DNA of 64,000 nt from Candidatus Sericytochromatia bacterium (GTDB taxonomy: Bacteria; Cyanobacteriota; Sericytochromatia; UBA7694), in NCBI GenBank assembly GCA_050248915.1, contig JBFWRL010000007.1, positions 6,084 to 70,083 on the forward strand, written 5' to 3'. The translations under genes and the position numbers were made by a program. The notes below the pieces were generated by a model, which worked only from the letters and a program-made list of their open reading frames with translations, did not search any database and was not told the DNA's origin. This document shows, piece after piece, positions 8,678 through 20,180 of the stretch. The number at the start of each line of letters is the position of its first letter. The first letter of the stretch is position 1.

Positions 8678-9937
8678 GTGAAGCCGGCTGCTTGGATTTT
8701 ATTGCTATTCGTGCTCTCTGGGGGCATCAGCGCCCTCTTGGGCAATGAACTCGGTCGAAAAATTGGCAAAAAAAAGCTGTCGCTCTTTTCACTCAGACCC
8801 AAACACACCAGCACGTTTATGACGGTTGTCTTGAGTATGGCACTGTCTGCAGGGCTCTTTTCGCTCTTTTTGCTGCTCTCCCCCCATGACCGGCAGGTTC
8901 TGCTCAATCCAGATGAATTGGTCATCTCCCAGATGGAAGTCCAAGAAGAGAAATTGGCCCAGATCAACCAAACGTTTAAACACTGGCAAAAGCGCACCAA
9001 CACGGGCCTTTCCAGCACAAAAGCAACAGCGCCTGCTGCGGAATCTCAAGAAATACCTACAGCAGAGACGCAAGAGACACCCGCTGCGACACAGTCAGCA
9101 GAAACGCCCCCCGTTCAGGTCGTGTTCAGCAACCATCCCGTGCAAAGGCGCAGGGCCGGGTCTGCCCATGATGAGCTGAGTGAAGACAATTGGGACAGTG
9201 ATTTTAAAGAAGCTGACTTCCAGGCGTTGCCCCTTTCTCCGCAAGGCTTTCAGCAAGCGGCTGAGCAACGTGCCATCCCCTTTCAAAAGCGCCCCAGTAC
9301 GGGCCGTTCGGAGCGTCCCCAAGCAGCCCAAACTCAGCCCAGCCAGCGGCAGCAGTGGGTATTGGCCCACGCCCATGAAACCCTGCTCAGGTTCGAAACA
9401 GCACCCAGTCAGTCTGCCCGCCAAGCAGAAGCCACTGTGGCCAAGATTTTGGAGCTCACTGAAGCCTATGCCCAACAAATGGGCTTGCCCCAAAGTGAAG
9501 GCAGTCGGGTTCAGGTTTTGCTGGCAGAGGTGCAGGCCCTCAAGTTGAATTTATTGTCCGGCCAGGATCTCGAAATCGAAGTTGAAACCGCTCAAAATAT
9601 CCACGCCACTCAGCCCTTAATGGTTCACCTGCGCAGCACCCCACAAGCAGCCGTCTCAACAGATTGGGACCCCAGCGAATTGCTTGAAGAAGAACGTCTA
9701 CAGCCCGAAAATGTCAAACAGACCTTGCAGCAAGAAGTCTTGCCCGCCATTCGTTCAGCTTTGGCCCTCAAAACGCCCTTTTACGCAGAGAGCACAGCAC
9801 AAACCATTCGGCCCAGCGCTGAACAGCCTTTTGTCTCAGCGGCCCGACTCGGCCTCAGCGCCCAGCAAAGTGTCAAAATCATGAACACCCTGCTCGATGC
9901 TGAGAGCTTAAAAATCCGTTTGTGGATGCTGCCTTAA
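8678..9937 (+). CDS. Hypothetical membrane-anchored Gln/Ala-rich protein
   Basis: Two N-terminal TM helices followed by a ~350-aa low-complexity Q/A/P-rich region. Confidence 0.4.
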   Translation: MKPAAWILLLFVLSGGISALLGNELGRKIGKKKLSLFSLRPKHTSTFMTVVLSMALSAGLFSLFLLLSPHDRQVLLNPDELVISQMEVQEEKLAQINQTFKHWQKRTNTGLSSTKATAPAAESQEIPTAETQETPAATQSAETPPVQVVFSNHPVQRRRAGSAHDELSEDNWDSDFKEADFQALPLSPQGFQQAAEQRAIPFQKRPSTGRSERPQAAQTQPSQRQQWVLAHAHETLLRFETAPSQSARQAEATVAKILELTEAYAQQMGLPQSEGSRVQVLLAEVQALKLNLLSGQDLEIEVETAQNIHATQPLMVHLRSTPQAAVSTDWDPSELLEEERLQPENVKQTLQQEVLPAIRSALALKTPFYAESTAQTIRPSAEQPFVSAARLGLSAQQSVKIMNTLLDAESLKIRLWMLP

Positions 9938-10028
9938 CCACCCAATCTGCGGTAAGATGAAGTACCTGTGACACAGACAATGCTCTTTTTACTGTCTGTA
10001 TCCCTTGATCTTTGTTTGGAGTAAACCC

Positions 10029-10499
10029 ATGTTTGAAAAAGAAGTTGATAAGAAAAAAGTCACCGAATTGCTCAACCATATCCTCGAAATGGAAATGGCC
10101 GGAATGGTGCGTTATACCCATTATTCCCTGATGGTCTATGGCTATAGTCGGATTCCAATTGTCTCTTGGCTGCGTGAGCAGGCCAACGAATCCATGACCC
10201 ACGCCCTCGAAGCCGGAGAGCTGATCACCAGTCTGGGTGGGCACCCCTCACTGGGCATTGGCCCCCTGCTCGAAACCCACAAACACGATATTGGCGATAT
10301 CATGCGCGAAGCCATGGAACACGAAAAAAATTCAATCAAAGCCTACCGCGACCTGCTGGCCTTGGTCGAAGGCAAATCCATCACCCTCGAAGAATATGCC
10401 CGTCGTTTGATTCATGACGAAGTGGTTCATGCCACCGAAGTGGACAAAATGTTGCGCAAACCGGGTGATCTCAGCAGCTTTGACAGCCACGCCCATTAA
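10029..10499 (+). CDS. Bacterioferritin-like (ferritin-like diiron) protein
   Basis: KVxxLLNxxLxxE...Y..H......G....W...Q..ES..H helix pattern like Bfr. Start taken at ATG 10029; the ORF opens at 10005. Confidence 0.6.
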   Translation: MFEKEVDKKKVTELLNHILEMEMAGMVRYTHYSLMVYGYSRIPIVSWLREQANESMTHALEAGELITSLGGHPSLGIGPLLETHKHDIGDIMREAMEHEKNSIKAYRDLLALVEGKSITLEEYARRLIHDEVVHATEVDKMLRKPGDLSSFDSHAH

Positions 10500-10888
10500 T
10501 GACACTTTCCCCTGCTGCACGCCAGACCCTTTTGATGGCAAGCCTTTGGGGCTTTCTCGGAGTGGGTCTGGGTGCCTTTGGGGCCCATGGGCTTAAATCT
10601 CAGCTCTCACCGGCCCTGCTGCTAATTTTTGAAACGGGCGTAAAATACCAGATGTATCATGCCCTGGCCCTGCTGGGGTTGACCCCTTTCTTTCCCAGAG
10701 AAGGCACAACGCCTCTGCTGCTCTGGGCCAGCCGACTTTTTTCGCTGGGTATTGTGCTGTTTTCGGGCAGCCTCTACCTGCTCAGTTTAACGGGGGTTCG
10801 AACTTGGGGGGCCGTCACGCCCTTGGGGGGACTGGCATTTTTGTCGGCCTGGGCCTGTTTGGCCTATTATGCATGGAAATCCCGCTAA
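10499..10888 (+). CDS. DUF423-family small membrane protein
   Basis: Four predicted TM helices and the GAFGAHGL motif typical of DUF423/YgdD. Confidence 0.7.
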   Translation: MTLSPAARQTLLMASLWGFLGVGLGAFGAHGLKSQLSPALLLIFETGVKYQMYHALALLGLTPFFPREGTTPLLLWASRLFSLGIVLFSGSLYLLSLTGVRTWGAVTPLGGLAFLSAWACLAYYAWKSR

Positions 10889-10983
10889 AGCCCTCCCCAG
10901 AGAGACGACTCACATGGTATTTTAGATTGTAAGTATTTTAGGTTGTAAAATAATTTCACAATCCTGACCATGGAAAACAAACA

Positions 10984-13143
10984 ATGAAACAAAGACTCGC
11001 TGTTTCTCTCATCTTAAGTTCATTTTTATTCGGTCTCAATGCCTGTGACTCCCCTTCAGCCCTGTTGATCAGTCAAAGCGGCAATAGCCAACCCCTCACA
11101 CTCAGAGCCAATTTACAGGCCGCTGCCAGTGCACTTCAAGCAGCCACCTTGACGATCACCGAAGTGGATAAATTGCCAAGCAATTTACGCACAGCGGGGC
11201 TGATTGAAATTATTTATGATACCAGCAAAACACGCATTCCCGGCACCCGCAATTCAGATGGCAGTTTGACCTTTCCCTTTCGCTCCAGCCGCCCGATTTC
11301 GGGCGATGGTTCTTTGTCTGTGATTCTGGTCGGCGATCGGGCGCTGAGCTACCCTGTGCAACTCGAAACAGGCTCAGAATTGGCCCTCAACTCACCAGGC
11401 ATCCTGATCAGCCCCACCAACACGGTGACCGTGGGCAGCAGCCTCCAACTCAAGGCCAATTTTAAACAGGCGGAAAGTGCAGGCAACTACGACTTTACTT
11501 GGTCTTATGCCGCCTCTCAAGCCGGTCCCTGGCAGGCCATCAGCGGCAATACCCCAGAGGTGCGCATGGATGCCACCCGAATTGGCAATTATTATTTACG
11601 CTTGGAAATGCGCAACCGCCAGAGCCAAAGTGTCTCGAGTTATACCACCCCTTCGGCCCTGCTGCGGGTGCAAGACAGCGACCGTCTGGCTTTGACCACC
11701 CCTGCCTCGGGTGTGGTGCTCGAAGGCGAAAGGATTGAACTCGAAGCCAATTTGCCTGAATACGAAAAAAGTGAAAACCTGCGCTACCTCTGGTCTTATT
11801 CAGCCTCTCTGCAAGGCAATTTTGCCCCGATCAGCGAAGAGGGCAAAAAAATTGCCTGGGAAACCCCACGGGCGGGCAGTTATTACCTGCGTTTGCAGGT
11901 CTTAAGTGGCAACGGCAATGCCACGTATACCTCTTCCAAAACACTGGTACAGGTGGCCCAGGCCGATTCGGTGATTCAAACCACGCCCCCCACAGGCTCA
12001 TTGGTGCGCGGCGATGCTGTCACCCTCAAAAGCACCCTGGCAGACTCTCCCGATCTGACTTATACTTGGTTTTATGCTTTCAGCCCCCAGGGCAGTTTTA
12101 CTCCAATTCCGGGCAGCGGCAACAGTGTCAATTGGACCCCCAATCTCACCGGCGATTTTTACCTGCGCCTGCGCACTTTTGATGCCAAAACCAATCAAAG
12201 CCGCACTTATACCTCTTCAAAATCGTTGGTCAGCGTGCGCGACAGCGACAGTGTCTTCAGCACAACCCCCAACCCAGCCAGCTTGCTCAAAGGTGACAGT
12301 GTCCAATTGACCCTCAATCAGAGCAGTTCCGAAAACGTGATCTGGAGTTATGCCAGCACGGCCCAAGGCCCGTTTTTGCCCATTCCCGCCACAGGCAAAA
12401 GTGTGAATTGGAGCCCTGCTTCCCCTGGCAGTTATTATCTCAAAGCCGAAGCCCCCCGCAGCGATGGCAGCCTTGCGACTTGGATTTCAGCGAACTCGAT
12501 GGTCACTGTGGCCGATCGGGGTGACGCGATCAGTACCGAACCCGCGCTGGGACAATTGCAATTGGGCCAAGCCGTGAGCCTGCGCTCCAGTGTGAAAGTG
12601 GCCAATGGCCGTTATAGCTGGTCTTATGCCAGCAATGCCACAGGCCCCTTTACACCGGTGCCCTCGTTGGAATCGCAGTCGCTGTCTACCGTCACCTGGT
12701 ACCCCACCCAGAGTGGGAGCTATTATATCAAACTGGATATCAGTGACCCCCAAAGCCGTTCCAGCGTGAGCTTCACCTCGGAGCAGGCCCTGGTTCAAAT
12801 TCAGGAAGCCCAGCCCTTTTTCACCTCCGATCCCAACACGGGACGCGTCAAGTCTACAGACCATGTGCTTGTCAAGGCCCGTTTTGACTCCGCAGGCAGG
12901 GCCTTTAACTATGGCTGGGCCTATAGCACCGGCGCAGCTGGGCCCTTTACCCCAATGGGAGGCAGCACCCTGCCCGAGTACTTTTGGAATCAACCCCTGA
13001 AGCCCCAAGGCAGTTATTATCTGCGCTTTACCGCCACCCCACCGGGTTCTGACCGCAGCCTGACCTATTACTCTCAGGTGCCGCTGCTCTTTGTCAGCAG
13101 CAGTGATGCAGGTGCGCCTGAATTTGGAACCATTTCGCGCTAA
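10984..13143 (+). CDS. Lipoprotein built of six tandem ~95-aa Ig/PKD-like repeats
   Basis: Lipobox LFGLNAC|D. Six repeats are anchored on Y-x-W-S/F-Y-A-x-S-x-x-G-P-F-x-P-I...G-S-Y-Y-L-R-L...Y-T-S-S-K-x-L-V. Confidence 0.75.
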   Translation: MKQRLAVSLILSSFLFGLNACDSPSALLISQSGNSQPLTLRANLQAAASALQAATLTITEVDKLPSNLRTAGLIEIIYDTSKTRIPGTRNSDGSLTFPFRSSRPISGDGSLSVILVGDRALSYPVQLETGSELALNSPGILISPTNTVTVGSSLQLKANFKQAESAGNYDFTWSYAASQAGPWQAISGNTPEVRMDATRIGNYYLRLEMRNRQSQSVSSYTTPSALLRVQDSDRLALTTPASGVVLEGERIELEANLPEYEKSENLRYLWSYSASLQGNFAPISEEGKKIAWETPRAGSYYLRLQVLSGNGNATYTSSKTLVQVAQADSVIQTTPPTGSLVRGDAVTLKSTLADSPDLTYTWFYAFSPQGSFTPIPGSGNSVNWTPNLTGDFYLRLRTFDAKTNQSRTYTSSKSLVSVRDSDSVFSTTPNPASLLKGDSVQLTLNQSSSENVIWSYASTAQGPFLPIPATGKSVNWSPASPGSYYLKAEAPRSDGSLATWISANSMVTVADRGDAISTEPALGQLQLGQAVSLRSSVKVANGRYSWSYASNATGPFTPVPSLESQSLSTVTWYPTQSGSYYIKLDISDPQSRSSVSFTSEQALVQIQEAQPFFTSDPNTGRVKSTDHVLVKARFDSAGRAFNYGWAYSTGAAGPFTPMGGSTLPEYFWNQPLKPQGSYYLRFTATPPGSDRSLTYYSQVPLLFVSSSDAGAPEFGTISR
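11374..13143 (+). repeat. About 285-bp tandem coding repeats (x6) inside the lipoprotein gene
   Basis: Recurrent W[SF]YA...GPF...GSYYL[RK]L blocks every ~95 aa in the translation. Confidence 0.7.
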
Positions 13144-13153
13144 ATCCCCATGC

Positions 13154-13180
13154 CCCCTCGGCAGATAAACTGCCGAGGGG
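13154..13180 (+). other. Perfect 11-bp stem-loop (cccctcggcag-ataaa-ctgccgagggg) right after the stop codon; no U-tract
   Basis: Inverted repeat read directly from the sequence. Confidence 0.5.
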
Positions 13181-13241
13181 CTAGGAAACGTAGCCAAGAT
13201 CCGCTAAAATACCCTTTAATCTGTCCGGATGTTCGAGAAAG

Positions 13242-14471
13242 GTGTTCTCTATGTTGTCCAAATCCACCCCCTTGCGTCTCTTGGCCCTTTCAATTTTATT
13301 GGCCGCCTGCGCGCCTTTGGCCACCCCTGGCCTGCGCTCGGCCGCACCCGTTGTCCTGCAAAAACAGAGCACGGGCCCAGCCATTGACGACAGTGAATTG
13401 AGCAGTCCTTTAAAAGCCAATCTCTTGCCCCAACTCGAACAAGAGGCCACCCGCCGCGAAGGCAACCAGCTCGTGTTTCGGGCTGTGGCACTCAGCCGCC
13501 AAGGCCAGCGTCCACTCAATTCGAGCCGTTTGGACGTGCAGGGCCAGTTCAATTATTACGATTTGCAGGGCCAATTGCAACCGGCGGCCAATACCACGGT
13601 GGCCCTCTACCAAGGCAGTCGCAAGGTGGGCCAGGTCTTGACCAGCCCCGATGGCCGCTGGAGCATGGTTGCACCGGCACCGGGCAATTATCAGGTGCGT
13701 TATAGCTTTGCCAATCCCCGCTGGAATATCGAGCGCTACAGCTGGGACGGTCCCCAGGTCAGTGTTCAGAGTGCCGTAGATACTGGGGCTTATACCCTTG
13801 AAAAAGGCAGTAAAAATGCCGAAGCGGCTTTTATCCACGATGTGTATAACCGGGCTCTCCATCTGTTTGAACGGGAACAAATGGATCTGAGCTGGTGGTC
13901 ACGCACAATCAAGACAGTCTGGCCAGGTTCTGGTGATTATTACAGCTTTTACACCGTCAATTTGACAGGGGCCCAGCAATGGGACGTCAATGGCCATGAA
14001 ATTGGCCACGCGATTTATGATCAGGCCCTCAATGCCAATTCAACCGGTGGGCAACACAAAATTGACGAATGTTATAACGGCACCCTGGCTTTTTCAGAGG
14101 GCTTTGCGACCTTTTTCTCTGGAGCGGTTCATTTGCAGCGCAATGATGAAGACGCCCGCTTTGGCCCCTATTTGGTGCCGCGCCGCGCGCCGATCCGAAT
14201 GGAAAATACCCCTGCGGATGTCTGTCCCGGCAACCGCAATGAATGGCGAGTCTCTTCCGTGCTCTGGGACGTTTACGATACCCATGTCGATGGTGTGGAT
14301 CAGTTCAGCCTCTCACTCAAAGAGATCTTCTCACTCTTTGCCCAGACCAACAAGCCGGCGATTAACAGCGCCTTGGATGCTTACCAATTGCTGAAAGAAC
14401 GCACCCCCGCAGAAGCGCGCCCGGTTTTGCGCCAAATTTTTGAGCAAAACACCATGGAAGTCAAAGATTGA
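13242..14471 (+). CDS. Putative secreted zinc metalloprotease lipoprotein (HExxH)
   Basis: Lipobox LLAAC. HEIGHAIYD zinc-binding motif in the middle of the protein. Confidence 0.6.
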   Translation: MFSMLSKSTPLRLLALSILLAACAPLATPGLRSAAPVVLQKQSTGPAIDDSELSSPLKANLLPQLEQEATRREGNQLVFRAVALSRQGQRPLNSSRLDVQGQFNYYDLQGQLQPAANTTVALYQGSRKVGQVLTSPDGRWSMVAPAPGNYQVRYSFANPRWNIERYSWDGPQVSVQSAVDTGAYTLEKGSKNAEAAFIHDVYNRALHLFEREQMDLSWWSRTIKTVWPGSGDYYSFYTVNLTGAQQWDVNGHEIGHAIYDQALNANSTGGQHKIDECYNGTLAFSEGFATFFSGAVHLQRNDEDARFGPYLVPRRAPIRMENTPADVCPGNRNEWRVSSVLWDVYDTHVDGVDQFSLSLKEIFSLFAQTNKPAINSALDAYQLLKERTPAEARPVLRQIFEQNTMEVKD

Positions 14472-14850
14472 TACTGGGCCGTTTATCAGTGGTTCAGAGC
14501 AGGGGAGGCCTGGCAGGCATGCGGGCCGCTCATTACGCCCATCCATGGGCTTCATTCGCTAAGAGTCGCAGTGCCGTCGTGTCCTCCTGACACGGCACTG
14601 CTCCTATTGCCCGCATCACCTTGCCAGGCCATTCCCCTGCTCAAGGGCCTCTTGGCTCAAAAGCTGTCCGAATCGATGTTCCAAGCTCAATTCACTTGCC
14701 CGTATTGACTCCATAATAGCTATGTTAACCCGTCCTCTTGCAGCTCTTTGAAACGGGGAGTCAAATACCAGATCTACCTGACTTTAGAGCTGAAGTACAA
14801 CTGCCGTAATCCAGGGAAATGCCCAATTCAACCCGTTCGAGCAGAGTTGC

Positions 14851-14975
14851 GGCCAGGGATGGGCAGAGAAGGCAATAGGAGGCCCGCCGGTCCAGGATGG
14901 ACAAAGGCGGGGTGACTTTTAGCCCGTGAAGCGCACGATGCGTGGAACGGGCGGCCTGAACGCCCATCCCTGGCC
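14851..14975. ncRNA. Candidate structured RNA or miniature inverted-repeat element inside the 700-bp non-coding gap
   Basis: Perfect 14-bp long-range inverted repeat ggccagggatgggc (14851-14864) / gcccatccctggcc (14962-14975) enclosing a 97-nt GC-rich, hairpin-rich core. A second strong hairpin lies at about 14565-14600. Confidence 0.35.
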
Positions 14976-15180
14976 GCCCACTCAGGTACAAAACCCAGTT
15001 TATGAAGCACAACACCTGCTCCCACTGGCCCTCACAGCCAACGACCATTCAGTCCAGCCCCCTGCTCAGCTTAAGCCCCAACGGGAATTGGTGCGTGTGT
15101 TATAATTCAGATCCGGTTGCAGAACCAATCTGTTTTATCTGCAAGCGCTTAGAATTGGTTAAGGAGTTTTCAATCCAATC

Positions 15181-15504
15181 ATGGCCGTAAAAGAAGTCAA
15201 CGATCAAAATTTTGCTGAAGAAGTGCTCAATGCAAGTTCTCCCGTCTTAGTCGATTTTTGGGCACCCTGGTGTGGCCCTTGCCGCCTGGTTTCCCCCGTG
15301 GTGGACGAAATTGCCAAAGAATATGATGGCAAACTCAAAGTTGTCAAAGTCAATACCGATGACAATCCCGAGACTGCCACCAATTACCATATCAGCGGGA
15401 TTCCCTCACTGCTGCTGTTTAAAGAAGGCCAAGTGGCCGATCAAATTGTCGGTGCTGTGCCCAAAGCCAAGCTTTCCAATATGGTCAGCCAGCACGTTTC
15501 TTAA
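15181..15504 (+). CDS. trxA: Thioredoxin
   Basis: WCGPC active site. Typical 107-aa thioredoxin. Confidence 0.95.
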
Positions 15505-15527
15505 ACAGCCCCTTTTCACAGCTCAAA

Positions 15528-15562
15528 ACAAAAGCCCCCTGCGTTTATCAGGGGGCTTTTAG
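15528..15562. terminator. Bidirectional rho-independent terminator
   Basis: aaaagccccctg-cgtttat-cagggggctttt hairpin flanked by A and T runs, between convergent genes. Confidence 0.8.
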
Positions 15563-15580
15563 CTGTCTTTAAACCGCGGA

Positions 15581-16348
15581 TTATTTCATCGCAGGCAATT
15601 GTTTGAGCTCGACTTCGGCCACCAACTCAATGGCATCGTTGAGAAAGTGCATTTCGCGGAAATAGAGTTGCATATCGTCGTTGCTGAGTTTGTTCAGATC
15701 AATCAAGGGATTGACTTCATCGAGCACCGATTGAATCACATCGGGAGAGACCGGGTGATCCATGGTCACAGCATTGGCCGCCGCCAGTTTGATGGTGCGC
15801 TCGGAGCCCAATTTAAACACGCCCCCCACTTCAAAGGGAATTGTAAAAAAGCCACCCATGGTCGTGGCTTTACCACTCAAAACAGCTTTGCCTGCTTGTA
15901 GATCCATGCTCAACATCGAGATATCCGCCCCAAACGAAGAGAGCAATTCTTGGTTTTCCAAAATCTTTTCAAGCATAGCCTGAAAGGTATCCGACTGTAA
16001 AAATTTGTTCAAACCGGCTTCGGTAATGCGAATCCGCACCACACCTTGGGTGGGGGCCCGCAACTGCATCTGATCGGTGTCCATATTCAGACGGTCGACA
16101 CGCAGAGAGACAGAATCCACCGGGAATTCAGAGATCGTAAAGCGCTGGGCATCCAATTCGAGATAGGCCATCTGCCCCCCCAGCAGGGTAAAACTGGGGG
16201 CTTCGGGGTGAACCTTGACCCGCAAATGTTCGGGATGATTCAGGGCCTGATCCACTTTGTCATGTAAGATGCCGTTGGCCACATTGGGAGCCACACCCCC
16301 CAATGTCATAATAAATCCAAGGACGATTGCAAGAATTGTAATAACCAT
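15581..16348 (-). CDS. Hypothetical N-terminally membrane-anchored protein
   Basis: N-terminal TM helix, 255 aa, no diagnostic motif. Confidence 0.5.
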   Translation of the reverse strand: MVITILAIVLGFIMTLGGVAPNVANGILHDKVDQALNHPEHLRVKVHPEAPSFTLLGGQMAYLELDAQRFTISEFPVDSVSLRVDRLNMDTDQMQLRAPTQGVVRIRITEAGLNKFLQSDTFQAMLEKILENQELLSSFGADISMLSMDLQAGKAVLSGKATTMGGFFTIPFEVGGVFKLGSERTIKLAAANAVTMDHPVSPDVIQSVLDEVNPLIDLNKLSNDDMQLYFREMHFLNDAIELVAEVELKQLPAMK

Positions 16349-17582: not shown

Positions 17583-20180
17583 CTATAACTTTTGAATAGA
17601 ACGAGCCAAAAAAGGACGATCTGACTGAAAGTTTTGAATACTTTTACGCAAAACTTCATCGACAGTTTCTGTACGCCGCGTATCGAAGCCTGTTAATTGC
17701 TTTAAATGATACTCTGCATTGCGACGGATTTTTTCAACCTGTTGAGCCACCTGTGCTCGCTCCGTCTGGCGGGCATTCTGCTGTTCTGCCAACAATAGGT
17801 TGATTTGCTCCGTGGTTTTGAGAACCTGCTCTAACCACTTTTGGGTCGCTTGCTCAAGTTCTCGATTATCTGGGCGGGGGGATTGGCTCAAAAGGGCCTG
17901 GGCCTCATTGGCCTTGGCAATCAAAGCCTGAAGTTCCTCATCCAATTGCTGTTTCAGGGCTTCATTCAAGCTATCCGAAACAGCAAACAAATCAGCTATC
18001 AGAGACTGTAAATCTTGGGCCTGTTGTAACAAAAATGCGCTCAGTTGGGCCAGTAAATGGCCACGCATTAAACTCTCAGTGGCTTGACTGAGCGTCTCTT
18101 CTGCTTGGGCCAGAAGAGCGGGCAGCCGCTCAAAAATAGCATTGGCTTCACTGCGTAAATCACCAAGCAACTCGATGGGCAAGAGCCCTGCCAGATCCGG
18201 ATTCTGAGATACGTCTTCCAGTTCTGAATTGGCCTTTTTGAGGTCTTTCATTTTATCTTTAACAACAGACACAAGTTCTGCCTGTTCTTTCACACGGGCA
18301 TTTAAAGTCGCCGCTTCTTGATCAGCCTGGATTTGTAAGCGCGTCACCGTGGCCCCACTCGCCGCCAATTTTGCATCGAGTTCTTTTAACTTGGCTGCTT
18401 GGCCTTGTAAAGCGGCCTGAAAATAGTCCCCCAAAAGCTCAGGACCCACCGACTGCCCATTGCGCTTAAAGGTGGGTGAACCACTGCCGAGTTCAAGCGA
18501 AAGACCATATTCAGCCAATAGTTTATTCAGATCAGCCAATTTTTCAGCCGAACCAAATTGCTGTAAAAAGGAGGCATCCCATTGCCCCGATTTGGCTTGT
18601 TGGAGCAAGCTATTGAGCATCCGTTGTTTTTCGGCTTCCGCTTGCGCTTGTGCCGCAGCTTCTTGTTGTTGCTTTTGCGCCGCAGCCAAATCATCCAAGG
18701 TCTGATCATATTTGACCCGCAATTGCTGAATATCTGCATCATTGCGTTTGATTTCTTCTTCGAGCGCTTTTACCTCAGTCAACAAAAGTTGGTTTCTGGC
18801 CATCACCTCAAAGGCCTGGGCCAAACCTTCCACCTGTGTCAGGGTAAATCCTGACGCTCTGGGGTTTTGTATCCGCTGAATCAGTTGGGCAACTTGTTTT
18901 AATTGGCCCAAATCTTTGCTAGAAATCTCTTCTTTATTGGCCAAATTGTAGAGTTTGCCGTCCTGAAAACGCAATCCCAAGGTGCGCAAGAGTGCATTTT
19001 CTTGGTTGGACAGAGTCTGCCCTGGCTGCCCCAATTTATCTAAAATCGTGGCCAGTTGAGCCATTTCGGGCTTGTTGTAATTGCGCATAGCCTGAACCAA
19101 AACATAGCCCATTTTGGATTTAAGATCGAGATCTGCCACCACTCTTTGCTGAGTGTTCCCATCGATCAACACCGTGTTTGAGCCTGGGCCGCGTCCTTCA
19201 ACGATGCCCAAACGTACCTGCTCTTGAAAGAGTTTGGCCAGATCAGAGCCCTGATTGTGGATCAATCCGGTCAAGCCAGCAATATCACCATCTTCAAAAT
19301 TCAGACGCCGCAGCTCATTGTCATTCATTTTGAGCATTTGGTCATAAAATTGATTCCGATCGTTGACCAAAACAGCTTGGGGACTACTTGGCCCCCCCCC
19401 TTTGCTGGCGTTTGCTGGGGTTTTCGCCTGTTGCTCACTCCAAGCCTGATAGCCCCAGGTCACAGGACGCAATTCGGAAATAACCGCCGCTGAAAGCAGA
19501 GCCGGTCGCCGAGCCAAAGCGGGAACCTTTTCAAAAATAGCCTGCAGTTGGGCCTTGCTTGGACGCTCTTGGGTCGCAGTCAAAGTCTGAACCAGTTCAT
19601 TGACCGTGGCTTGGGCCAAAGCTGGGTTTTTCAGGTGTAGGCGCTGCAATTCATGGGTCATTTCACTTCTGAGCAGCTGCACCTGCACATCTTCAATCAG
19701 TTTGGGTTCGGGCACAGTGGCTGACAAGCGCTTTTGTTCTTCTGAATTCAGGGGTTTCTGCTGACGGACTTTTTCCATGATCTCCAAGAGCTGATCCACT
19801 TCTTCTGGCGATTTGCCCTGAATGGCATTGACCGTCTTTTGAATATGGGGCAGCCGGGCCCAATAGCTATCGATCTTAAAACTTTTACCCGCTTCCGCAG
19901 ACAGCGTTGTGTCGGAGCGATCCATTTTGGCCAAAGCCGCTTGGACCACATTTTCAACAGGTTCGCCTTTTTCCAATAAATTGATAGCCGCAACCACATC
20001 GGGATTGTCGAGGTTGGCAATAAAGGTCAGTTCGTCCTGGGTTGGGTTGGGCCCCAATTCCTGCCGCAGTTCATGCAGTTCTTTTGCGGTGACTTTGCCA
20101 TCATTTTTGAGCGCCTGATGGGCTTTTTGCAGCAGTTGAGAAGAAAGGGGGCCTGTGCCTGTGTGCTCAGAACGAATCAT
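17583..20180 (-). CDS. Large coiled-coil protein (865 aa), unknown function
   Basis: Long heptad-like Q/E/K/L-rich segments. No enzymatic motif. Confidence 0.5.
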   Translation of the reverse strand: MIRSEHTGTGPLSSQLLQKAHQALKNDGKVTAKELHELRQELGPNPTQDELTFIANLDNPDVVAAINLLEKGEPVENVVQAALAKMDRSDTTLSAEAGKSFKIDSYWARLPHIQKTVNAIQGKSPEEVDQLLEIMEKVRQQKPLNSEEQKRLSATVPEPKLIEDVQVQLLRSEMTHELQRLHLKNPALAQATVNELVQTLTATQERPSKAQLQAIFEKVPALARRPALLSAAVISELRPVTWGYQAWSEQQAKTPANASKGGGPSSPQAVLVNDRNQFYDQMLKMNDNELRRLNFEDGDIAGLTGLIHNQGSDLAKLFQEQVRLGIVEGRGPGSNTVLIDGNTQQRVVADLDLKSKMGYVLVQAMRNYNKPEMAQLATILDKLGQPGQTLSNQENALLRTLGLRFQDGKLYNLANKEEISSKDLGQLKQVAQLIQRIQNPRASGFTLTQVEGLAQAFEVMARNQLLLTEVKALEEEIKRNDADIQQLRVKYDQTLDDLAAAQKQQQEAAAQAQAEAEKQRMLNSLLQQAKSGQWDASFLQQFGSAEKLADLNKLLAEYGLSLELGSGSPTFKRNGQSVGPELLGDYFQAALQGQAAKLKELDAKLAASGATVTRLQIQADQEAATLNARVKEQAELVSVVKDKMKDLKKANSELEDVSQNPDLAGLLPIELLGDLRSEANAIFERLPALLAQAEETLSQATESLMRGHLLAQLSAFLLQQAQDLQSLIADLFAVSDSLNEALKQQLDEELQALIAKANEAQALLSQSPRPDNRELEQATQKWLEQVLKTTEQINLLLAEQQNARQTERAQVAQQVEKIRRNAEYHLKQLTGFDTRRTETVDEVLRKSIQNFQSDRPFLARSIQKL

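What the first reader, a model, noticed from the sequence alone, without database searches (positions are those of the whole stretch)
10984..14471. Six-fold tandem Ig/PKD-like repeat lipoprotein paired with an HExxH lipoprotein
The 719-aa lipoprotein is built almost entirely of ~95-aa repeats with a conserved W-[SF]-Y-A...G-P-F...G-S-Y-Y-L-R-L core. This is a divergent PKD/Ig-like fold candidate. The repeats differ substantially at the nucleotide level, so they look ancient rather than recently amplified. Directly downstream is a second lipoprotein with an HEIGH zinc site. Together they look like a surface adhesin/protease pair. A perfect 11-bp hairpin without a U-tract separates the two genes and may act as an attenuator or processing site.
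Basis: seen in the sequence. Interest (0 to 1): 0.5.

Follow-up and report, generated by a model that had tools for sequence, protein, structure and literature searches.

The report
PKD-repeat lipoprotein beside thermolysin-fold lipoprotein

Summary
ORF1 (10984-13143, 719 aa) has a lipobox, an N-terminal beta domain and six 92-99-aa repeats (23-39% aa, 38-51% nt identity). ORF2 (13251-14471) has a lipobox and HEIGH. A perfect 11-bp hairpin with no U-tract lies between them.

The "adhesin/protease pair" reading is weak. Adjacency holds only in relatives with at least 69% PKD identity; deeper homologs of either gene lack the other. The PKD gene's conserved features are upstream Dps-DUF423 (10/10 loci) and a 19-bp palindrome, TATTTTA-N5-TAAAATA, present in 15/16 loci. 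The same palindrome precedes paralogs that head PKD-MFP-RND efflux operons divergent from a MarR gene.

The hairpin is kept only in the ≥93%-identity (PKD protein) clade and its role is unresolved. Overall these are ordinary gene types with modestly new context.

The parts
10918..10952 (+). Conserved cis-element upstream of the PKD gene. It is a 16-bp direct repeat (TATTTTAGATTGTAAG x2) that runs into a 19-bp palindrome, TATTTTA-N5-TAAAATA (10934-10952). Probable MarR-type operator overlapping the promoter.
   Evidence: Found by TRF. It is the only match in the window at 2 mismatches or fewer, against 0.05 expected. It is aligned and conserved in 8 loci and present upstream of the PKD-family gene in 15/16 loci, including the paralogs next to MarR.
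10927..10954 (+). Sigma-70-like promoter match, TTGTAA-16-AATAAT, overlapped by the palindrome.
   Evidence: Consensus scan, 9/12 matches. No transcript data.
10984..13143 (+). Gene for the 719-aa PKD-repeat lipoprotein.
   Evidence: ORF. Pfam PKD 47.8 bits against a gathering score of 23.5. 33 homologs, all about 720 aa, in Sericytochromatia. AF2 pLDDT 83.9.
10984..11046 (+). Signal peptide with lipobox L-N-A-C (Cys21), followed by the conserved D-S-P-S.
   Evidence: Cys21 is invariant in 29/29 homologs. Asp at +2 occurs in 21/28.
11095..11367 (+). N-terminal non-repeat beta domain (about aa 38-128).
   Evidence: AF2 secondary structure and pLDDT of about 77-85. No Pfam match.
11386..11676 (+). 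PKD repeat 1 (aa 135-231).
11677..11952 (+). PKD repeat 2 (aa 232-323).
   Evidence: Best PKD_2/PKD_3 stretch.
11953..12228 (+). PKD repeat 3 (aa 324-415).
   Evidence: Best PF00801 stretch, aa 334-410..
12229..12504 (+). PKD repeat 4 (aa 416-507).
12505..12801 (+). PKD repeat 5 (aa 508-606).
12802..13140 (+). PKD repeat 6 plus a short disordered tail (aa 607-719).
13154..13180 (+). Perfect 11-bp GC-rich stem with a 5-nt loop and no U-tract, 11 nt after the PKD stop codon.
   Evidence: The stem is kept in L010 (one compensatory A-U to G-C change, two wobbles, one mismatch) and in L023 (new loop, one bulge), but is absent from L009 and L001.
13205..13210 (+). -10-like TAAAAT, conserved in four relatives. 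Possible separate promoter for the HExxH gene (inference).
   Evidence: Alignments; coordinates. The consensus promoter scan did not call it.
13251..14471 (+). Gene for the 406-aa thermolysin-fold HExxH lipoprotein (alternative GTG start at 13242).
13251..13310 (+). Signal peptide with lipobox L-A-A-C (Cys20).
13452..13799 (+). Transthyretin-like / CarboxypepD_reg-like beta-sandwich (aa 68-183).
13815..14450 (+). Catalytic domain (aa 189-400). HEIGH is at 13995-14009. The putative third zinc ligand E283 is at 14097-14099. C274 and C325 are an invariant pair.

Best explanation
These are two independently evolving envelope lipoprotein genes. They lie side by side only in one shallow clade of Sericytochromatia ('Blackallbacteria'-like).

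(1) ORF1 product. The protein is lipid-anchored at Cys21. It forms an extended string of seven Ig-like beta-sandwiches: one N-terminal domain plus six bona fide but divergent PKD domains. Its family is confined to Sericytochromatia and keeps the six-repeat architecture. Every orthologous copy sits after Dps-DUF423 and behind a conserved 19-bp palindrome that overlaps the promoter. The same palindrome lies in the divergent intergenic region between a MarR-family regulator gene and paralogous PKD-lipoprotein genes that head PKD-MFP-RND efflux operons.

Inferred from this: ORF1 is repressed in trans by that MarR-type dimer. It would act in the cell envelope, probably periplasm-facing, as a binding or scaffolding accessory of a MarR-controlled efflux/envelope-stress regulon, not as a dedicated partner of the protease.

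(2) ORF2 product. The protein is a lipid-anchored zinc metallopeptidase of a so-far unnamed clan-MA (gluzincin) family. Its layout is a flexible linker, a transthyretin-like beta-sandwich, and a thermolysin-like two-lobed catalytic domain. H249 and H253 would bind zinc, E250 would be the catalytic base, E283 on the next helix is the inferred third ligand, and C274-C325 the inferred disulfide. It most likely trims or degrades envelope or extracellular peptides. Its substrate is unknown.

(3) The hairpin. The 11-bp intergenic hairpin most likely marks and stabilises the 3' end of the PKD transcript, as a U-less terminator or exonuclease barrier. The second gene may then use its own -10-like TAAAAT.

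Shown here: sequence features, folds, family distributions, synteny and motif conservation. Inferred: regulator identity, cellular location, catalysis and hairpin function.
For: PKD identity:
- PF00801 scores 47.8 bits against a gathering score of 23.5.
- The AF2 model is all-beta, pLDDT 83.9.
- Foldseek returns tandem Ig-like arrays, top hit GhpA at E 2.8e-19.

Ancient, fixed repeats.

Lipoboxes conserved across both families.

Peptidase fold:
- AF2 pLDDT 84.4, pTM 0.81.
- Invariant H249, E250, H253, E283, C274 and C325.
- Weak Peptidase_M36 hits in 5/36 members.
- hhalign aligns the HExxH helix to thermolysin H142/E143/H146.
- Distant relatives are fused to subtilase domains or to a T9SS tail.

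Not an obligate pair:
- HExxH homologs at 50% identity or less are elsewhere in the genome.
- PKD orthologs at 40-59% identity lack it.
- The HExxH family also reaches proteins labelled Elusimicrobia and Wallbacteria.

Conserved PKD context: Dps-DUF423-PKD in 10/10 informative loci.

Operator:
- Unique in the window.
- Conserved in 15/16 loci with sequence-invariant arms.
- Located between MarR and the PKD paralog in L017-L022.
- Adjacent locus tags CVV27_07315 (MarR) and CVV27_07320 (PKD).
- Four genomes carry both gene copies, and in three of them the clear palindrome is upstream of each; in the fourth, L015 has only a degenerate variant.

Hairpin: stable and rare. The stem is kept, with one compensatory change, in relatives of 93% identity or more. 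The conserved TAAAAT lies downstream of it.
Against: - No MarR, MFP or RND gene lies in the 64-kb window, so trans-regulation in this genome is extrapolated from other genomes.
- The regulator that binds the palindrome is inferred only from adjacency.
- Most ortholog copies are not next to efflux genes, so their link to efflux rests on the shared motif and on paralogy.
- The pair has stayed adjacent in five related genomes, and the 107-nt gap has no canonical terminator. Co-transcription and some functional coupling in this clade therefore remain possible.
- No sequence-level membership in M4 or M36: Pfam is below threshold, hhalign probability is 11%, and the PDB profile search is empty.
- The Asp+2 sorting rule is established only for enterobacteria.
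Confidence: 0.6

Rival explanations
1. The two genes form one operon that encodes a cell-surface adhesin (PKD rod) and its partner protease. The hairpin would act as an attenuator or processing site that sets their ratio.
For: - The genes are on the same strand, 107 nt apart, and both products are lipoproteins.
- They are adjacent in five related genomes.
- There is no canonical terminator between them.
- The hairpin stem is maintained in the closest relatives.
- PKD domains accompany many secreted proteases (established knowledge, e.g. collagenase ColG).
Against: - The adjacency disappears in all sampled PKD orthologs at 59% identity or below and in HExxH homologs at 50% or below.
- The two family distributions differ: 33 against 267 hits, and different labelled phyla.
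- The PKD gene has its own conserved operator, while the HExxH gene has a conserved -10-like box.
- The hairpin is missing in the 82% and 72% relatives that still keep the pair.
- Asp+2 argues against outer-surface sorting, if the E. coli rule applies.
Confidence: 0.15
2. The PKD lipoprotein is a structural or glycan-binding envelope protein (S-layer-like or polysaccharide-binding) that has nothing to do with efflux. The palindrome would be bound by a regulator other than the adjacent MarR, or would simply be an AT-rich promoter/UP element.
For: - Foldseek hits include an S-layer protein and a surface filament.
- Each repeat keeps exposed aromatic residues (W, YY) of the kind that PKD domains in chitinases use to bind polysaccharide (established knowledge).
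- Most ortholog copies have no efflux neighbours.
- The motif overlaps -10-like and -35-like hexamers.
Against: - The same 19-bp dyad, with invariant 7-bp arms, is kept upstream of both the ortholog and paralog lineages (35-95% identity). In the paralogs it sits, usually in two copies, exactly in the MarR/PKD divergent region.
- Two of the three genomic contexts of the family are PKD-MFP-RND operons.
Confidence: 0.2
3. The intergenic hairpin has no regulatory role. It would be a recent, neutral insertion or the remnant of a small mobile or REP-like element.
For: - It is present only in the clade of 93% identity or more and absent at 82% and 72%.
- L010 and L023 have about 31 extra nucleotides just upstream, so this spacer is indel-prone.
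- The neighbouring HExxH-trx spacer also carries strain-specific structured insertions.
Against: - There is only one copy in the window.
- The stem persists through a compensatory change and a loop replacement in relatives.
- It is very stable, z = -6.6, and lies 11 nt after a stop codon, a typical place for a transcript 3'-end structure.
Confidence: 0.3

Closest known systems
PKD domain (Pfam PF00801) repeat proteins of bacteria, e.g. the PKD-like domains of collagenase ColG and of chitinase A, and tandem Ig-like surface filaments such as GhpA
   Same: - Beta-sandwich repeats of about 90 aa.
- The repeats carry the PKD signature positions Y-x-W-x-[FY] and G-x-Y-x-[LV]-x-L.
- The HMM score is above the gathering threshold.
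- The AF2 model is a beads-on-a-string array.
- The top Foldseek hit is the GhpA neck.
   Different: - The canonical WDFGDG loop is replaced by W-S-Y-A.
- The protein is anchored as a lipoprotein and has no enzymatic or secretion-tail domain.
- Its fixed architecture (one N-terminal domain plus six repeats, about 720 aa) is restricted to Sericytochromatia.
- It is linked to a MarR-type operator and, in the paralogs, to RND operons.
Thermolysin (MEROPS M4), fungalysin (M36) and pseudolysin LasB: clan MA(E) gluzincins
   Same: - HExxH on the active-site helix, and an invariant Glu on the following helix.
- The HExxH strand-plus-helix aligns to thermolysin residues 131-151.
   Different: - Only 7-13% identity.
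- No Pfam M4 or M36 hit at threshold and no hit in the PDB sequence search.
- The HExxH-to-Glu spacing is 29 residues with motif S-E-G-F, against 19 residues and N-E-x-x-S-D in M4 (the M4 values are from established knowledge).
- No FTP/PepSY propeptide. Instead there is a lipobox, a linker and a transthyretin-like N-domain.
- Extra invariant motifs: GGQHKIDECY and PRRxPxRxE.
MarR/marO-type repression of efflux operons (E. coli marRAB/acrAB paradigm; MexR-mexAB-oprM), and accessory periplasmic proteins encoded in RND operons (CusF in cusCFBA)
   Same: - A MarR-family gene lies divergent from an operon that contains MFP and RND genes, with two dyad-symmetric sites of about 19 bp in the shared intergenic region.
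- An extra periplasm-targeted protein is encoded within the pump operon.
   Different: - The extra component is a 710-730-aa lipoprotein made of six PKD repeats, not a small metallochaperone.
- In the window the PKD gene is detached from any pump or regulator gene and keeps only the operator.
- Binding and regulation are untested.
U-less ('I-shaped') intrinsic terminators and REP-type 3' stem-loops that stabilise upstream mRNA (e.g. malE-malF REP)
   Same: A very stable GC-rich stem-loop lies just after a stop codon, between two same-strand genes, with no U-tract.
   Different: It is a single copy rather than a dispersed repeat family. It is conserved only in very close relatives. There are no transcript data.

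Membership tests
PKD domain (PF00801) | Score at or above Pfam's gathering threshold. | tested here: met
   47.8 bits against 23.5, with 3 stretches; best stretch aa 334-410. 24 of the 33 homologs also carry a precomputed PF00801 hit.
PKD domain (PF00801) | Ig-like beta-sandwich fold of about 80-90 residues per repeat. | tested here: met
   AF2 pLDDT is about 80-93 across the six repeats, all beta. Foldseek matches tandem Ig-like arrays with E down to 2.8e-19.
PKD domain (PF00801) | Canonical WDFGDG loop motif. | tested here: not met
   The repeats have W-[SFA]-Y-[AS] followed by x4-G-P-F instead. This is a hallmark motif, not a requirement of the HMM.
Bacterial lipoprotein (SPase II substrate) | A positively charged n-region, a hydrophobic h-region and a lipobox [LVI]-x-[AGS]-C. 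| tested here: met
   ORF1: MKQR...FG-LNAC. ORF2: MLSK...IL-LAAC. The Cys is invariant in the PKD family (29/29). A lipobox is found in 26/36 HExxH homologs, including all Sericytochromatia-type members. Asn at -2 in ORF1 is atypical but recurs in 3 homologs.
Bacterial lipoprotein (SPase II substrate) | Actual lipidation, and the membrane to which the protein is sorted. | not testable with these tools
   Needs globomycin or palmitate labelling and cell fractionation. Asp+2, conserved in 21/28 members, is only suggestive.
Clan MA(E) gluzincin metallopeptidase | HExxH on a helix, plus a Glu zinc ligand on the next helix, within a thermolysin-like fold. | tested here: met
   [not shown]
MEROPS M4 (thermolysin) / Pfam Peptidase_M4, M4_C | Sequence-profile match, the HExxH-x19-E (NExxSD) motif, and an FTP/PepSY propeptide. 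| tested here: not met
   No Pfam M4 hit even at E <= 1 in any of 36 members. hhalign probability is 11%, covering only the HExxH helix. The spacing is 29 residues with SEGF. There is no propeptide domain.
MEROPS M36 (fungalysin) / PF02128 | Score at or above the Pfam gathering threshold. | tested here: not met
   [not shown]
MarR-regulated efflux locus | A MarR-family gene adjacent and divergent to the regulated operon, with a dyad operator in the shared intergenic region. | tested here: met
   Met in the paralog loci L017-L022. Not met in the window itself, which has the operator but no MarR gene within 64 kb.
MarR-regulated efflux locus | The regulator binds the operator and represses transcription. 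| not testable with these tools
   Needs EMSA or DAP-seq, and expression analysis.
Canonical intrinsic (Rho-independent) terminator | A GC-rich stem-loop followed by a U-tract. | tested here: not met
   The stem is present (11 bp, -26 kcal/mol) but the tail is CTAGGAAACG, and the terminator scan did not report it. By contrast, the trxA terminator at 15530-15560 has A- and T-tracts.

The most novel reading that the evidence does not exclude
The six-PKD lipoprotein family would be a previously unrecognised fourth, periplasm-spanning component (or substrate-capturing accessory) of RND tripartite efflux systems in Sericytochromatia. It would be controlled by a dedicated MarR through the TATTTTA-N5-TAAAATA operator. 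The window's copy would be a detached regulon member that works with a pump encoded elsewhere in the genome, and the adjacent unnamed clan-MA lipoprotein peptidase would be a recently recruited envelope-remodelling partner.
Probability: 0.2. Interest if true: 0.55.

Novelty: new member of a known kind. Interest (0 to 1): 0.3.

Why it matters
Taken at face value the finding is ordinary: a PKD-repeat lipoprotein next to a secreted-type zinc peptidase. Three things have modest value.

1. The peptidase belongs to a sizeable family with no Pfam or NCBIfam model (about 91 clusters at 50% identity with E <= 1e-30). Its fold is thermolysin-like, so it is a candidate for a new clan-MA family definition.

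2. The PKD lipoprotein family carries an unusually well-conserved 19-bp operator and, in its paralogs, heads MarR-controlled RND operons. That gives a concrete, testable regulon in Sericytochromatia, a barely studied and uncultured sister lineage of the Cyanobacteria.

3. It shows that gene adjacency seen in a single genome suggested a 'pair' that comparative data do not support.

Tried and rejected
- Self-BLASTP of ORF1 at E <= 1e-3 found no internal matches. The repeats are too divergent, so motif anchoring and MAFFT were used instead.
- NCBIfam gave nothing for either protein.
- A PDB sequence-profile search with the HExxH family gave only noise.
- The Foldseek afdb50 library was unavailable, so no annotated AFDB neighbours were obtained.
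It was used only for residue correspondence.
- The 374-aa CarboxypepD_reg protein in the MarR cassette was tested as a possible HExxH relative and rejected (blastp E 0.81, no HExxH).
- An Rfam E-value scan of 10400-15700 found no RNA family for the hairpin, the operator region or the downstream insertion. ARAGORN found nothing there.
- The hairpin as a dispersed repeat was rejected: it is a single copy in the window.
- The palindrome as an RNA hairpin was judged less likely, because its arms are sequence-invariant rather than covarying.
- Literature searches (Sericytochromatia + lipoprotein; Blackallbacteria; PKD + RND + lipoprotein) found nothing relevant.
- Searches for other copies of the 14472-15090 insertion in plasmids, phages and metagenome contigs found nothing.

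Full report
**1. Observation**

ORF1 has six copies of the motif pair W-[SFA]-Y-[AS] and G-x-[YF]-Y-[LI]-[RK], spaced 92-99 aa apart.
- The six repeats are 23-39% identical in protein and 38-51% in codon-threaded DNA.
- Tandem Repeats Finder finds no DNA array inside the gene.
- In 29 homologs, all 702-738 aa long, the core Trp and Gly of every repeat are invariant.
- One correction: residues 22-134 are not repeat sequence. AF2 models them as a disordered linker plus a separate beta domain.

Both proteins begin with lipoprotein signal peptides.
- ORF1 has ...FG-LNAC(21)-DSPS.
- ORF2 has ...IL-LAAC(20)-AP, counted from ATG 13251. That ATG follows an RBS-like GAGAAAGG and is the likelier start.
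- The lipobox Cys is invariant in the PKD family. It is present in all Sericytochromatia-type members of the HExxH family. The remaining members, including some labelled Elusimicrobia or Wallbacteria, have plain signal peptides or divergent N-termini.

HEIGH lies at nt 13995-14009.

The hairpin CCCCTCGGCAG-ATAAA-CTGCCGAGGGG lies at 13154-13180, 11 nt after the stop codon, and has no U-run on either side.
- In a 43-nt context it folds at -26.1 kcal/mol, z = -6.6.
- Perfect stems of 11 bp or more occur at only two places in the window and in none of 5 shuffles.

**2. What the proteins are**

ORF1 scores 47.8 bits on Pfam PKD (gathering score 23.5) and sits exactly at the cut-off for PKD_2. Big_2 and other Ig families are not significant.
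- The repeat consensus (Y-x-W-x-Y ... G-S-Y-Y-L-R-L) lines up with the PKD signature Y-x-W-D-F-G-D-G ... G-t-Y-t-V-t-L. The comparison with the PKD consensus is from my own knowledge.
- The AF2 model (pLDDT 83.9) is a string of seven beta-sandwiches. Its low pTM of 0.48 is expected for beads on a string.
- Foldseek returns tandem Ig-like arrays, led by the GhpA surface filament.

ORF2 has no Pfam or NCBIfam family, and all 267 homologs are labelled hypothetical.
- A 36-sequence alignment shows invariant H249-E250-x-x-H253, H269, D272, C274, E283, PRR-x-P-x-R-x-E, C325, E331-W332 and D343.
- AF2 with that alignment is confident (pLDDT 84.4, pTM 0.81). It gives a disordered linker, a beta-sandwich at aa 68-183 and an alpha/beta domain at aa 189-400. 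The HExxH lies on helix 244-259 and E283 on helix 277-294.
- At sequence level only the active-site strand and helix align to thermolysin (hhalign). Five of 36 members give sub-threshold M36 hits. The PDB profile search is empty.
- An exhaustive HMM search finds 91 clusters (50% identity) at E <= 1e-30 and 573 at 1e-10. Distant relatives still have no Pfam model over this domain, but some are fused to a subtilase or to a T9SS sorting tail.
- I conclude that ORF2 is a lipoprotein member of an unnamed clan-MA gluzincin family. It has the fold and ligand pattern of M4/M36 but is a member of neither.

**3. Are they a pair?**

Organism and shared synteny. Source labels on the homologs point to Sericytochromatia / 'Candidatus Blackallbacteria'. 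The order Dps, DUF423, PKD, HExxH, Trx, then (on the minus strand) LmeA and SpoVS, is shared by relatives at 95, 93, 82 and 72% identity (L010, L023/24, L009, L001/2).

Loss of the pairing in deeper relatives.
- HExxH homologs at 50, 43, 39 and 38% identity sit in unrelated contexts. One, in an Elusimicrobia genome, follows M14 and M3 peptidase genes.
- PKD orthologs at 59 and 48% identity have other genes downstream.
- tblastn of the window's proteins against 20 loci shows Dps-DUF423-PKD in 10 of 10 informative ortholog loci, but HExxH only in the four closest genomes of that set.

The adjacency is therefore recent and clade-specific. The PKD gene's stable partners are Dps and DUF423.

**4. 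A conserved operator and the link to MarR and RND**

The motif. Aligning the DUF423-PKD spacers revealed a strongly conserved AT-rich element. In the window, a 16-bp direct repeat (10918-10949) runs into a 19-bp palindrome, TATTTTAGGTTGTAAAATA (10934-10952), which overlaps a promoter-like TTGTAA-16-AATAAT.
- It is the only match in 64 kb (0.05 expected).
- The dyad TATTTTA-N5-TAAAATA lies 6-45 nt upstream of the start codon in every ortholog locus.
- It also lies 45-223 nt upstream of a second, 35-38%-identical paralog lineage, often in two copies 32 bp apart.
- Only L015 has a degenerate form.
- The arms are invariant in sequence rather than covarying. That favours a protein-bound DNA site over an RNA hairpin.

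The paralog cassette. The paralog loci share one layout: OMF(TolC-like) <- 374-aa CarboxypepD_reg protein <- MarR | PKD paralog -> HlyD/MFP -> AcrB-type RND (Pfam; NCBIfam; tblastn).
- It is seen again in L021 and L022, and in the adjacent tags CVV27_07315 and CVV27_07320.
- The palindromes lie in the MarR/PKD divergent spacer.
- The PKD copy in L015 is also followed by MFP and RND genes.
- Four genomes carry both an ortholog and a paralog copy; three have the clear dyad upstream of each, while L015 has only the degenerate form.

Reading. MarR-family dimers binding dyad sites of about 16-20 bp in such spacers is textbook knowledge. The most economical reading is a MarR regulon that includes the window's PKD gene in trans. 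The window itself has no MarR, MFP or RND homolog, so this step is inferred.

Location. The conserved Cys-Asp at +2 (21/28 members) is the inner-membrane retention signal in E. coli (established knowledge; unknown for this phylum). It fits a periplasm-facing role better than a surface adhesin.

**5. The hairpin**

Conservation of the stem.
- In L010 (95%) it has one compensatory A-U to G-C change, two wobbles and one mismatch.
- In L023 (93%) it has a different loop (TTTGT) and one bulge.
- It is absent from the 82% and 72% relatives, which nevertheless keep both genes.

It is not a canonical terminator, is not repeated elsewhere and matches no Rfam family.

About 25 nt downstream, a -10-like TAAAAT (13205-13210) and the sequence around it are conserved in four relatives.

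My preferred reading, at low confidence, is a 3'-end or stabiliser structure for the PKD mRNA, with a separate weak promoter for ORF2. A neutral, recent insertion is a serious rival. Only transcript mapping can decide.

**6. Comparison and verdict**

The PKD protein is a new member of the PKD-repeat lipoprotein kind. The peptidase is a member of an undescribed family within a known clan. Neither is mechanistically surprising.

The 'pair' and 'surface adhesin' ideas are not supported by comparative data, and the hairpin's function is open.

The conserved operator and the MarR/RND connection are the most useful new leads. Overall interest is low to moderate (0.3).

Noticed in passing
window 10918-10952 (also L001 3690-3724, L007 4960-4994, L008 4941-4975, L012 6951-6969, L019 6799-6849, L020 6850-6900, L021 ~8806-8850): A 19-bp palindrome, TATTTTA-N5-TAAAATA, lies upstream of the PKD gene, preceded by a half-overlapping direct repeat. 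It is conserved upstream of both ortholog and paralog PKD-lipoprotein genes in 15/16 loci and is unique in the window. It is the probable operator of a MarR-family regulator.
   Followed up: yes
L017-L022 (e.g. L019 3737-13710; L021 2165-12048): A conserved cassette in other Sericytochromatia genomes: TolC-like OMF <- 374-aa CarboxypepD_reg protein <- MarR | PKD-lipoprotein paralog -> MFP -> AcrB-type RND pump. L015 shows a PKD copy followed by a different MFP-RND pair.
   Followed up: yes
window ~14478-15065 (between the HExxH stop codon and the trxA promoter): A strain-specific, non-coding, nested insertion.
- The spacer is 710 nt here, against 141 nt in L010 and about 300 nt in L023.
- L023 shares the outer ~160 nt. 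The window has about 446 nt more (14513-14958), flanked by GGCCTG.
- It forms two very stable stem-loop domains: 14497-14642, and 14849-14977 with a perfect 16-bp stem. Folding z is -7.0 for 14472-14680 and -6.2 for the whole stretch.
- There is no Rfam, tRNA or tmRNA match, no other copy in the window or fetched loci, and no hit in plasmids, phages or metagenome scans.
- Its nature (MITE-like element or structured RNA) is unexplained.
   Followed up: partly
window 15090-15110 and 15530-15560: trxA has its own extended -10 promoter-like sequence (TGTGTTATAAT), conserved in all four relatives. It is followed by a canonical bidirectional terminator, AAAAGCCCCCTG-CGTTTAT-CAGGGGGCTTTT, shared with the convergent LmeA-like gene. 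Rfam gives this site a sub-threshold Thr_leader hit.
   Followed up: partly
window 10005-10888 and the equivalent positions in L001, L007-L010, L012-L014, L016: A Dps/ferritin-like gene and a DUF423 membrane-protein gene, with stop and start overlapping at 10499, precede the PKD gene in 10/10 informative ortholog loci although the flanks beyond them differ. The functional meaning is unknown; a link to redox or metal stress is possible.
   Followed up: partly
HExxH family alignment A1, window aa ~44-50 (nt ~13380-13400): An acidic motif, I-D-D-S-D-L, is nearly invariant just after the signal peptide or linker in the HExxH family. This holds in members with or without a lipobox, and the motif lies in a low-pLDDT segment. 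It could be a pro-segment or latency element (an Asp-switch-like idea). Not tested.
   Followed up: no
L005 1703-7116 (Elusimicrobia MAG); P0193, P0197, P0245: A distant HExxH-family member directly follows Peptidase_M14 and Peptidase_M3 genes. Other distant relatives are fused to a Peptidase_S8 subtilase domain or carry a T9SS C-terminal sorting domain. All of this fits a secreted-hydrolase role.
   Followed up: partly
L010 2702-4862: In the 95% relative the PKD gene is called as two ORFs (74 aa and 607 aa). This is either a frameshift/pseudogene or an assembly error.
   Followed up: no
window 17583-20180 (-): An 865-aa ORF rich in Q, E, A and L, which looks like a coiled coil. L009 has a 744-aa ORF with no Pfam match at the equivalent position, while L001 has different genes there. 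Not analysed.
   Followed up: no
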